Of a DNA stretch of 2,892 bases, positions 2,555-2,700 are shown piece after piece. A program made the position numbers and the translations under genes. Every line of letters starts with the position of its first letter. The stretch's first letter is position 1. The stretch lies in assembly GCF_003334765.1 (NCBI RefSeq), contig NZ_QOWT01000072.1; one strand, written 5' to 3'. This stretch comes from Escherichia coli (lineage in GTDB: Bacteria; Pseudomonadota; Gammaproteobacteria; Enterobacterales; Enterobacteriaceae). Below the pieces are notes generated by a model. It made no database searches, was not told where the DNA came from, and saw only the letters and a list, made by a program, of their open reading frames with translations.

Positions 2555-2700
2555 CTAACTGAATCGCCACGTTCAACAACCTGTTTGACAGCTTCAACTT
2601 TAAACTCCTCAGGATAAAGCTTACCACGGGAATATCTACGGCAGCAGGTCAGTAATGGATTAAGTGATAACAGGTGTCTGGAAATATAGGGGCAAATCCA
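2555..2700. mobile_element. Terminal fragment of an IS3-family (IS2-like) element, truncated on its inner side at 2555/2556 by the cassette and ending at 2700
   Basis: 2621-2700 is about 85% identical to the recalled IS2 right end, and the + strand 2618-2689 translates to [23 protein letters not shown] (cf. IS2 OrfB C-terminus [22 protein letters not shown]). On the minus strand, 2628-2557 translates to RGKLYPEEFKVEAVKQVVERGDSV, a typical IS3-family OrfA N-terminus with no start codon, which breaks exactly at the cassette repeat. Orientation and identity are therefore ambiguous. Confidence 0.5.
2666..2700 (+). repeat. IS2-type terminal repeat, right copy (gataacaggtgtctggaaatataggggcaaatcca)
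   Basis: Direct repeat of 76-110. Ends in CA-3' immediately before the truncated IS629-like orfB. Confidence 0.6.

What the first reader, a model, noticed from the sequence alone, without database searches (positions are those of the whole stretch)
2555..2700. One 146-bp IS end reads as a transposase terminus on both strands
The + strand 2618-2689 encodes an IS2 OrfB-like C-terminus, which is largely a by-product of DNA identity with the IS2 right end. The minus strand 2628-2557 encodes a very typical IS3-family OrfA N-terminal motif (YPEEFKVEAVKQVVERG) without a start codon. Either this is the left end of an IS3-family element whose end sequence is IS2-right-end-like, or a chimeric or recombinant IS end. 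In both cases the OrfA-like frame is cut exactly where the cassette repeat begins (2554/2555), which dates the cassette insertion as later than this IS.
Basis: partly seen in the sequence, partly recalled or inferred. Interest (0 to 1): 0.4.

Follow-up and report, generated by a model that had tools for sequence, protein, structure and literature searches.

The report
Fused remnants of two insertion sequences
The 146 bases are a dead scar in an enteroaggregative E. coli virulence plasmid, where the last 77 bases of an IS2 copy were joined to a 69-base scrap from the start of a different IS3-family element; this is an ordinary by-product of insertion-sequence-driven rearrangement, not a new kind of IS end.

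Summary
On the + strand, 2624-2689 encodes the last 21 codons of IS2 OrfB. On the - strand, 2624-2556 encodes codons 3-25 of an IS3-family OrfA with no start codon. These are two adjacent fragments, not one piece of DNA read both ways. Window 2556-2625 is nt 138-70 of a 1,229-bp IS3-family element ("ISx"; 85% to a complete copy). Window 2623-2700 is IS2 nt 1255-1331 (97%), including an intact right terminal repeat. The switch is sharp, at a 2-3 bp microhomology, (A)CC at 2623-2625.

Plasmid JE86-ST05_p1 preserves the earlier state. It has the same cassette arm and the same ISx variant cut at the same base, but still with its own ATG, leader and ordinary ISx terminal repeat.

The dating claim is not supported. 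JE86 keeps 35 more bp of arm DNA at the 2554/2555 join, so the window's junction is a secondary deletion. No other ISx piece exists beside the cassette or elsewhere in plasmid 55989p. The left cassette border also varies between plasmids.

The junction occurs in 38 of 5,426 complete E. coli genomes, always with the same flanks. It is ordinary and of low interest.

The parts
2556..2625 (-). Remnant of an IS3-family element ('ISx', 1,229 bp when complete), nt 70-138. This is orfA codons 3-25 (GKLYPEEFKVEAVKQVVERGDSV). It lacks the terminal repeat, leader, ATG and codon 2 on one side and everything after codon 25 on the other.
   Evidence: 85.5% over 69 nt to the complete copy in E. coli G4/9. 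67/69 identical to JE86-ST05_p1. 82-86% to copies in 1,550 E. coli genomes. tblastn 83-87%.
2623..2625 (.). Breakpoint zone with (A)CC microhomology. The last ISx-specific base is 2622 and the first IS2-specific base is 2626. It is embedded in an imperfect 14-nt similarity, GGATAACGCTTACC versus GGTTATCGCTC(A/G)CC.
   Evidence: Three-way alignments and in-register tracks.
2623..2700 (+). Right end of an IS2 variant, IS2 nt 1255-1331. It holds the last 21 codons of OrfB ([21 protein letters not shown], 2624-2689) and the right terminal inverted repeat ending ...GGGGCAAATCCA at 2700.
   Evidence: 97.4% over 77 nt to an annotated IS2 copy. 93% or more in thousands of records. 96-99% to the IS2 end on the left of the cassette.
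2660..2700 (+). IS2 right terminal inverted repeat, apparently intact.
   Evidence: Identical over this stretch to the right ends of complete IS2 copies in L006 and L016.
2701..2892 (-). IS629/IS1203-family remnant: end of orfA, frameshift region and first codons of orfB. It is cut at 2700/2701 by the IS2 tip.
   Evidence: 98-100% to elements that RefSeq names IS629 or IS1203 family. Rfam ALIL hit at 2688-2786. Annotation.
2239..2555 (-). Diverged (77-80%) inverted partial copy of the promoter region and 5' end of the isoprenoid-enzyme gene (the 'cassette repeat'). Its outer end abuts the ISx remnant.
   Evidence: Inverted repeats I1 and I2. Alignment with 042, pLAO40 and JE86.
78..110 (+). 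Second IS2 right tip (33 nt) in the same orientation, on the left of the cassette. Here it is cut by an IS3 insertion. It is 178-187 nt long in plasmids without that IS3.
   Evidence: Direct repeat D1..
1..77 (+). Right end of IS3, inserted into the left IS2 terminal repeat.
   Evidence: Annotation 'IS3-like element IS3 family transposase'. Sequence.
2560..2571 (+). TGAATCGCCACG, a 12-mer identical to the ISx-family terminal repeat tip. It lies inside the orfA remnant, 4-5 nt from its cut end. Probably chance.
   Evidence: See Noticed in passing.

Best explanation
Window 2555-2700 is a non-functional junction between remnants of two different IS3-family insertion sequences lying tail to head.

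Proposed history:
1. An ISx element (1,229 bp) sat on the minus strand.
2. Its body beyond orfA codon 25 was lost first, leaving nt 1-138 joined to the diverged cassette arm. Plasmid JE86-ST05_p1 preserves this state.
3. In the ancestor of the 042, 55989 and pLAO40 pAA plasmids, a host-mediated deletion or illegitimate recombination occurred at a 2-3 bp microhomology, (A)CC, within a 10/14 imperfect repeat. It joined ISx nt 70 to nt 1255 of an IS2 copy that had inserted into an IS629/IS1203 element.
4. That event removed the ISx terminal repeat, leader, start codon and codon 2, all of IS2 except its last 77 nt, and whatever lay between them.
5. A separate 35-bp deletion trimmed the arm side.

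The result encodes nothing. Each strand carries a leftover piece of a different transposase gene. It has no transposase source and no partner end, so it is immobile and is inherited vertically as a scar.

Shown: the identity of both pieces, the sharp breakpoint, the 'before' state and the constant context. Inferred: the deletion mechanism and the order of the IS2 fusion relative to the 35-bp deletion.
For: Segment identities: 2557-2623 is 85% to ISx but 50% to IS2 in register; 2624-2700 is 97% to IS2 but 54% to ISx. The switch is visible base by base.

A complete ISx has ordinary matched termini, and its orfA ATG is at nt 64.

JE86-ST05_p1 is collinear with the window through the arm and the ISx fragment up to ...GGATAAAGCTTAC. 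It then continues into CAT (ATG), the leader and AACCTGTGGCGATTCA, followed by an IS1 fragment.

The junction is identical in lineages that differ by 2-5% (042 pAA, pLAO40). Those also carry a frame-breaking 1-bp deletion, which fits neutral decay.

The 146 bp occur as one piece in 38 of 5,426 complete E. coli genomes, and all 38 share the same flanks.

No other ISx DNA exists in the 72-kb plasmid 55989p, and IS2 is present there only as fragments.

There is no start codon in the OrfA-like frame.

Neither side of the 2623-2625 join is an IS tip. A transposase-made junction would be at a tip, so this argues for a host deletion.
Against: The 'before' state of the IS2 side (a longer IS2 at this IS629/IS1203 site) was not found in complete E. 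coli genomes. The material deleted and the size of the deletion are therefore unknown.

JE86 has AGT rather than GGT at codon 3, so the exact extent of microhomology (AC, CC or ACC) depends on the unsampled parent.

The intact parent ISx variant (EEFKVEAVKQVVERG) is not present in any of about 100,000 representative genomes.

The replaced ISx end (69 nt) and the incoming IS2 end (77 nt) are similar in length and share the IS3-family repeat core AGGTGTCTG. Recombination between the two ends in register cannot be excluded as the route.
Confidence: 0.9

Rival explanations
1. One reading: 2555-2700 is the genuine left end of an unsampled IS3-family element whose terminal about 77 bp happen to resemble the IS2 right end.
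For: IS3-family terminal repeats are related. ISx and IS2 share AGGTGTCTG and TTAA(A/G)TGA at similar distances from the tip. The minus-strand frame is open from the tip to the OrfA motif.
Against: The same OrfA variant has its own ISx-type end in JE86-ST05_p1. All complete relatives have ISx-type ends. 2624-2700 is 97% identical to IS2, including the orfB coding sequence, against an 85% divergence level for the OrfA part. There is no start codon. The sequence is never found with other flanks. Neither the exact junction nor the peptide occurs in representative genomes of about 100,000 species.
Confidence: 0.02
2. Nested-insertion route: ISx first transposed into the 3' part of an IS2 copy, as seen in Klebsiella plasmid OW849244. 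A roughly 257-bp slippage deletion between GGATAACGCTTACC and GGTTATCGCTCGCC then fused orfA codon 3 to IS2 nt 1255.
For: This exact order and orientation, ISx(-) left tip followed by IS2(+) 3' end, exists in Klebsiella with the two imperfect repeats about 257 bp apart on the same strand. IS2 and ISx have collided repeatedly.
Against: In JE86-ST05_p1, which shares the truncated ISx and arm by descent, the ISx tip abuts an IS1 fragment, not IS2. The Klebsiella ISx is only about 85% identical and is clearly an independent event. This is a sub-variant of the best explanation, with the same outcome and a different intermediate.
Confidence: 0.1
3. Hybrid mini-element: 2560-2700 is a 141-bp non-autonomous element bounded by an ISx-type tip (TGAATCGCCACG) and the IS2 right repeat, possibly mobilisable in trans.
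For: A perfect 12-nt match to the ISx terminal repeat lies 4-5 nt from the cut end. The IS2 right repeat is intact. The piece is bounded by TG...CA.
Against: It exists in a single context in all 38 carriers. No target duplication is present. The 12-mer lies in codon register inside continuous orfA homology, and the next codon GTT still matches orfA. Three of its four differences from other ISx copies are synonymous third-position changes. The two tips belong to different elements with different transposases.
Confidence: 0.03
4. Assembly or sequencing artefact that creates a false join between two repeats.
For: IS-rich regions are prone to misassembly.
Against: The junction is identical in 38 complete genomes from many laboratories and countries and in 34 PLSDB plasmids. 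These include diverged lineages with their own substitutions and a 1-bp indel.
Confidence: 0.01

Closest known systems
IS2 (IS3 family, IS2 group), right end
   Same: Window 2623-2700 is 97% identical to nt 1255-1331 of an annotated 1,331-bp IS2 copy. This covers the last 21 OrfB codons, the stop codon and the right terminal repeat ending CA.
   Different: Only 77 of 1,331 nt are present. There is no left end, no orfA/orfB and no transposase. It carries variant bases (GGATTAAG, CAGGTCAG) shared with the IS2 end on the other side of the cassette.
A 1,229-bp IS3-family element common in E. coli and Klebsiella ('ISx'). A complete copy is at NZ_CP060073.1, about 4,053,093-4,054,321, transposase WP_089518920.1. 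K-12 carries a remnant beside yagB in CP4-6. From memory it resembles ISEhe3; that was not tested.
   Same: Window 2556-2625 matches nt 70-138 (orfA codons 3-25) at 85%, in the correct codon register.
   Different: It is a diverged variant (KLYPEEFKVEAVKQVVERGDSV versus KRYPEEFKIEAVKQVVDRGYSV). The intact parent is unsampled. Only 69 nt survive, without a terminal repeat or start codon.
Mosaics of nested and truncated IS remnants in large virulence plasmids (pAA of EAEC strains 042 and 55989)
   Same: The same plasmids and the same region next to the agg fimbrial genes, aggR and aap. Within about 15 kb there are fragments of IS1, IS2, IS3, IS66, IS110, IS200/605, IS256 and IS629/IS1203.
   Different: Nothing differs in kind. 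This particular junction is simply unannotated in the records (PLSDB 'none'; RefSeq merges it into a 'transposase' pseudogene).
MITE-like or mini-IS derivatives of IS3-family elements
   Same: Short, non-coding and bounded by IS-type tips.
   Different: Single context, no target duplication, and tips from two different elements. See the membership test.

Membership tests
IS2 (as a remnant of) | Right terminal inverted repeat ...GTGATAACAGGTGTCTGGAAATATAGGGGCAAATCCA ending in CA | tested here: met
   Identical to complete annotated IS2 copies over 2660-2700.
IS2 (as a remnant of) | 3' end of orfB (…[18 protein letters not shown]) immediately inside the right repeat | tested here: met
   97.4% DNA identity over 77 nt.
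IS2 (as a functional element) | Left repeat, orfA and orfB with programmed frameshift, about 1,331 bp, 5-bp target duplication | tested here: not met
   IS2 homology stops at 2623-2626. In 55989p only IS2 fragments exist.
IS3-family element ISx (as a remnant of) | OrfA N-terminal helix-turn-helix region (Transposase_8-type, YPEEFK.EAVKQV motif) in codon register | tested here: met
   DNA at 82-86% to annotated IS3-family transposase genes in 1,550 genomes. tblastn at 83-87%. A related full OrfA, P0004, carries PF01527.
IS3-family element ISx (as a functional left end) | Own terminal repeat TGAATCGCCACGGG..., leader and ATG about 64 nt from the tip | tested here: not met
   Replaced by IS2 sequence from 2626 onward. 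No start codon.
IS3-family element ISx (as a functional element) | orfB with DDE catalytic domain and right repeat downstream of orfA | tested here: not met
   Homology ends at ISx nt 138. No other ISx DNA within 6 kb or in the whole of 55989p.
Mini-IS / MITE | Multiple copies in different genomic contexts, flanked by target-site duplications | tested here: not met
   38 of 38 carriers share identical flanks. No duplication at 2555-2559 versus 2701-2705.
   The left neighbour is an IS2 tip, not ISx. No ISx elsewhere. The left border varies by 27 bp and the right border by 35 bp between plasmids.

The most novel reading that the evidence does not exclude
The piece 2560-2700 is a hybrid non-autonomous mini-element. 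One tip is the ISx-type terminal 12-mer (TGAATCGCCACG) and the other is the intact IS2 right repeat. It could in principle be bound or mobilised by IS3-family transposases supplied in trans, or could promote adjacent deletions such as the 35-bp loss next to it.
Probability: 0.03. Interest if true: 0.3.

Novelty: already known. Interest (0 to 1): 0.07.

Why it matters
It matters little biologically. This is a neutral scar of the kind that fills IS-rich virulence plasmids.

It has three practical uses:
1. Annotation. Neither strand encodes a protein here. The open antisense frame through the IS2 right end generates many spurious 'hypothetical proteins' in databases. The RefSeq 'transposase' pseudogene and 'AL1L pseudoknot' features run across an IS junction.
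2. Lineage marking. The ISx::IS2 junction and the 35-bp arm deletion are shared derived characters of the 042, 55989 and pLAO40 pAA plasmids. JE86-ST05_p1 keeps the ancestral state. This can help order rearrangements around the AggR-linked isoprenoid genes.
3. Method. A 'transposase terminus on both strands' can arise from two abutting fragments rather than from one unusual IS end.

Tried and rejected
- Exact-pattern scan of one genome per species for the junction (CCCGTGGTAAGCTTTATCCTGAGGAG): 0 hits.
- Back-translated scan for EEFKVEAVKQVVERG, to find an intact parent IS: 0 hits.
- Protein search with the 48-aa minus-strand reading. It was swamped by spurious ORFs reading antisense out of IS2 ends. 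The one real OrfA hit (P0004) was an ordinary ISx orfA interrupted by IS2, not a parent.
- The idea that the cassette's left flank carries the same ISx/IS2 pair. Rejected: the minus-strand fragment there is an IS66-family TnpA inserted into IS2.
- The 'ISKpn20' label for the closest protein hit. Rejected: it belongs to a different IS that interrupts that copy.
- One-piece 90% matches across the IS2 tip (H222-H225). These are an ordinary IS2 in an AraC-family pseudogene, not the same junction.
- The conjecture that 55989p holds the other half of the IS3-into-IS2 insertion. Rejected.
- Naming ISx from the literature (ISEhe3). The papers give no sequence-level test, so this is left as an untested recollection.
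- No structure prediction, Pfam job or RNA modelling was run. The fragment is 23 codons without a start codon, and DNA homology already decides the question.

Full report
WHERE THE WINDOW COMES FROM
The whole 2,892-bp window matches large plasmids of enteroaggregative-type E. coli at 99.5-99.9%. In plasmid p140_MLI109 it lies between the agg fimbrial genes and aggR/aap. The same segment is present in 55989p and, at about 97%, in pAA of strain 042.

Layout of the window:
- 1-77: right end of IS3.
- 78-110: a 33-nt IS2 right tip.
- 111-2555: the 'cassette'. It holds a class 1 isoprenoid enzyme gene (241-1269), idi (1273-1812), an IS256-family pseudogene, and at 2239-2555 a 77-80% diverged inverted copy of the promoter and 5' end of the first gene.
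- 2556-2700: the finding.
- 2701-2892: an IS629/IS1203-family remnant on the minus strand.

CHECKING THE OBSERVATION
The minus strand of 2557-2700 translates as one open frame that ends in ...SRGKLYPEEFKVEAVKQVVERGDSV. The frame has an upstream stop and no ATG, GTG or TTG before the motif. The + strand gives ...[23 protein letters not shown]. Both are true homologies rather than chance:
- IS2 nt 1255-1331 matches at 97.4%, E=1.5e-32.
- The OrfA part matches annotated IS3-family transposase genes in 1,550 complete E. coli genomes at 82-86%, and at protein level at 83-87% over 23 residues.

The two readings occupy adjacent segments (2556-2625 and 2623-2700), not the same DNA.

WHAT THE TWO PIECES ARE
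A complete relative of the OrfA piece is in E. coli G4/9. It is 1,229 bp, with termini TGAATCGCCACGGG...CCGTGGCGATTCA, an orfA ATG at nt 64 and a programmed frameshift into orfB. I call it ISx. RefSeq labels it only 'IS3 family transposase'. My recollection that it resembles ISEhe3 was not testable here.

The window holds ISx nt 70-138, which is orfA codons 3-25. The other piece is IS2 nt 1255-1331. That covers the last 21 codons of orfB, the stop codon and the right terminal repeat, which is intact.

Cross-comparison shows a sharp switch:
- 2557-2623 is 85% identical to ISx and 50% to IS2 in register.
- 2624-2700 is 97% identical to IS2 and 54% to ISx.

Base by base, the last ISx-specific base is 2622 and the first IS2-specific base is 2626. 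The shared (A)CC at 2623-2625 lies within an imperfect 14-nt similarity, GGATAACGCTTACC versus GGTTATCGCTC(A/G)CC.

THE DECISIVE LOCUS
A search with the junction plus flanks found plasmids JE86-ST05_p1 and JE86-ST02_p1, where the match stops exactly at window 2624. Reading that locus shows:
- the same diverged cassette arm;
- then 35 extra bp;
- then the same ISx variant (67/69 nt identical, including the unusual Leu codon and ...GAACGTGGCGATTCAGTTA), cut at the same nucleotide (ISx nt 138).

There, however, it continues into CAT (the ATG), the leader and an ordinary ISx terminal repeat (...AACCTGTGGCGATTCA), followed by an IS1 fragment. The donor of the OrfA piece therefore had a normal ISx left end. 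The IS2-like end in the window is a later replacement.

No database element continues past 2555, and the OrfA reading has significant hits.

HOW THE JUNCTION MOST LIKELY AROSE
Neither side of the 2623-2625 join is an IS tip, so it was not made by a transposase. It is best explained as a host-mediated deletion or illegitimate recombination at short microhomology. The event fused an already truncated ISx to an IS2 copy that had inserted into an IS629/IS1203 element. It removed ISx nt 1-69, IS2 nt 1-1254 and whatever lay between.

A sub-variant is that ISx had first transposed into IS2, and a roughly 257-bp slippage deletion followed. That arrangement exists independently in Klebsiella plasmid OW849244. 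However, JE86 shows the ISx tip next to IS1, not IS2, so I rank this route lower.

IS2 and ISx have collided at least three separate times (and this window). This reflects how crowded these replicons are with ISs.

THE JUNCTION IS OLD, INHERITED AND IMMOBILE
- It is identical in 042 pAA and pLAO40, which differ from the window by 2-5% in this stretch. Both carry a 1-bp deletion at window 2564 that breaks the OrfA-like frame, as expected for neutral decay.
- The 146 bp occur in one piece in 38 of 5,426 complete E. coli genomes. The same 38 also match with 40 bp of flank on each side.
- Plasmid 55989p contains no other ISx DNA and only fragments of IS2.
- Scans of one genome per species found neither the exact junction nor the peptide.

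THE DATING CLAIM
The evidence does not support that:
- The other half of ISx is not on the far side of the cassette, where an IS2 tip sits, nor anywhere else in the plasmid.
- There is no target duplication.
- The left border of the 'cassette' is not fixed. Plasmid 042 has 27 more bp, and pLAO40 has 19 of these followed by unrelated DNA.
- JE86 has 35 bp between the ISx remnant and the arm. These are homologous to the 27 bp beside the left arm in 042. The window's 2554/2555 join is therefore a secondary deletion, not the original breakpoint.
- JE86 has the arm and the ISx remnant without the isoprenoid genes.

What can be said is that truncation of ISx at nt 138 predates both the 35-bp deletion and the IS2 fusion.

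RESIDUAL ODDITIES
Window 2560-2571 (TGAATCGCCACG) equals the ISx terminal repeat tip and lies 4-5 nt from the cut. It is in codon register within continuous orfA homology, and the next codon still matches orfA. Three of its four differences from other ISx copies are synonymous. I therefore treat it as chance. It does leave a small (about 3%) possibility of a hybrid mini-element reading, against which the constant genomic context argues.

In this window both cassette arms have lost homologous 27-bp and 35-bp stretches. Each deletion begins exactly at the neighbouring IS fragment and ends within 1 nt of AACAGC. I have no explanation for this.

VERDICT
This is an ordinary chimeric IS scar of a well-known kind. 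The dating inference does not hold. Interest is low.

Noticed in passing
window 2560-2571: TGAATCGCCACG is identical to the terminal repeat tip of the ISx family, yet it lies inside the orfA remnant (codons E-R-G-D-S), 4-5 nt from where that remnant is cut. Other ISx copies match 8 of 12 here. JE86-ST05_p1 has the same 12-mer. Probably chance, but it would make 2560-2700 a TG...CA-bounded piece.
   Followed up: partly
window 110/111 and 2554-2556; L007 1107-1133; L015 2941-2975: Both arms of the cassette's inverted repeat have lost homologous DNA: 27 bp on the left relative to 042 pAA, and 35 bp on the right relative to JE86-ST05_p1. Each deletion starts exactly at the neighbouring IS fragment and ends within 1 nt of AACAGC. 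Two independent deletions with matching endpoints are unexplained.
   Followed up: partly
window 2688-2786 (minus strand): The Rfam ALIL frameshift-pseudoknot hit (81 bits, reported as full length) takes the 3' strand of its last helix (CCCCU) and an 8-nt loop from the IS2 tip. The native 3' part of the IS629/IS1203 pseudoknot is cut off at 2700/2701. RefSeq's 'AL1L pseudoknot' feature therefore spans an IS junction.
   Followed up: partly
window 1-110: IS3 (right end at 77) is inserted into the left-hand IS2 terminal repeat, 33 nt from its tip. Only some plasmids have this IS3. In the others the IS2 fragment is 178-187 nt long and is itself cut by an IS66-family element. That left IS2 tip also has GGG where the right copy has GGGG.
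   Followed up: partly
window 78-110 and 2623-2700: Two right ends of the same IS2 variant (both have GGATTAAGTG where reference copies have GGGTTAAGTG; 96-99% identical to each other) flank the cassette as direct repeats. Whether they come from two insertions or from a duplication could not be decided.
   Followed up: partly
window 241-1812: The cassette encodes a 342-aa 'class 1 isoprenoid biosynthesis enzyme' and a 179-aa isopentenyl-diphosphate isomerase. They lie close to aggR, aap and the AAF fimbrial genes on pAA plasmids. Their role in an enteric pathogen's virulence plasmid was not examined.
   Followed up: no
window 2211-2467 (minus strand): The diverged inverted arm contains a 5' fragment of a paralogue of the isoprenoid-enzyme gene (MEFLVINIVSDNVNGMHKCRYYNDTMD...). 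It also contains a 50-aa ORF (2315-2467) that RefSeq annotates as a hypothetical protein and that has no counterpart in the left arm, because the right arm has about 106 extra bp.
   Followed up: no
window 1870-2200: A frameshifted C-terminal remnant resembling an IS256-family (mutator-type) transposase lies between idi and the inverted arm. RefSeq labels it only as a frameshifted, partial 'hypothetical protein' pseudogene; the IS256-family assignment is my reading of the translated sequence and was not tested with a tool. pLAO40 has an IS1 in this region instead.
   Followed up: no
window 2649-2700 (minus strand); proteins P0005-P0120: More than 100 database 'hypothetical proteins' (some with borrowed names such as 'transcriptional regulator') contain the antisense read-through of the IS2 right end (WICPYISRHLLSLNPLL...), joined to whatever DNA lies next to the IS. 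This is a recurrent gene-calling artefact.
   Followed up: partly
L005 2297-2903; P0004 / L012: IS2 and ISx have run into each other independently in other replicons. In Klebsiella plasmid OW849244, ISx is inserted into IS2 about 265 bp from the IS2 right tip. In an E. coli contig, an IS2 tip interrupts ISx orfA at codon 60.
   Followed up: partly
L016 1878-1901 versus window 2701-2724: The 24 nt following the IS2 right tip in an unrelated insertion (an AraC-family pseudogene near hipA) are about 67% identical to those following the tip in the window (both ..GAC..CGTA.TG.TCA..CAGC). This may reflect an IS2 target-site preference.
   Followed up: no
window 2564; L007, L008: 042 pAA and pLAO40 lack the T at window position 2564. 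This shifts the OrfA-like frame (ERGVQL instead of ERGDSV), which fits a remnant evolving neutrally.
   Followed up: yes
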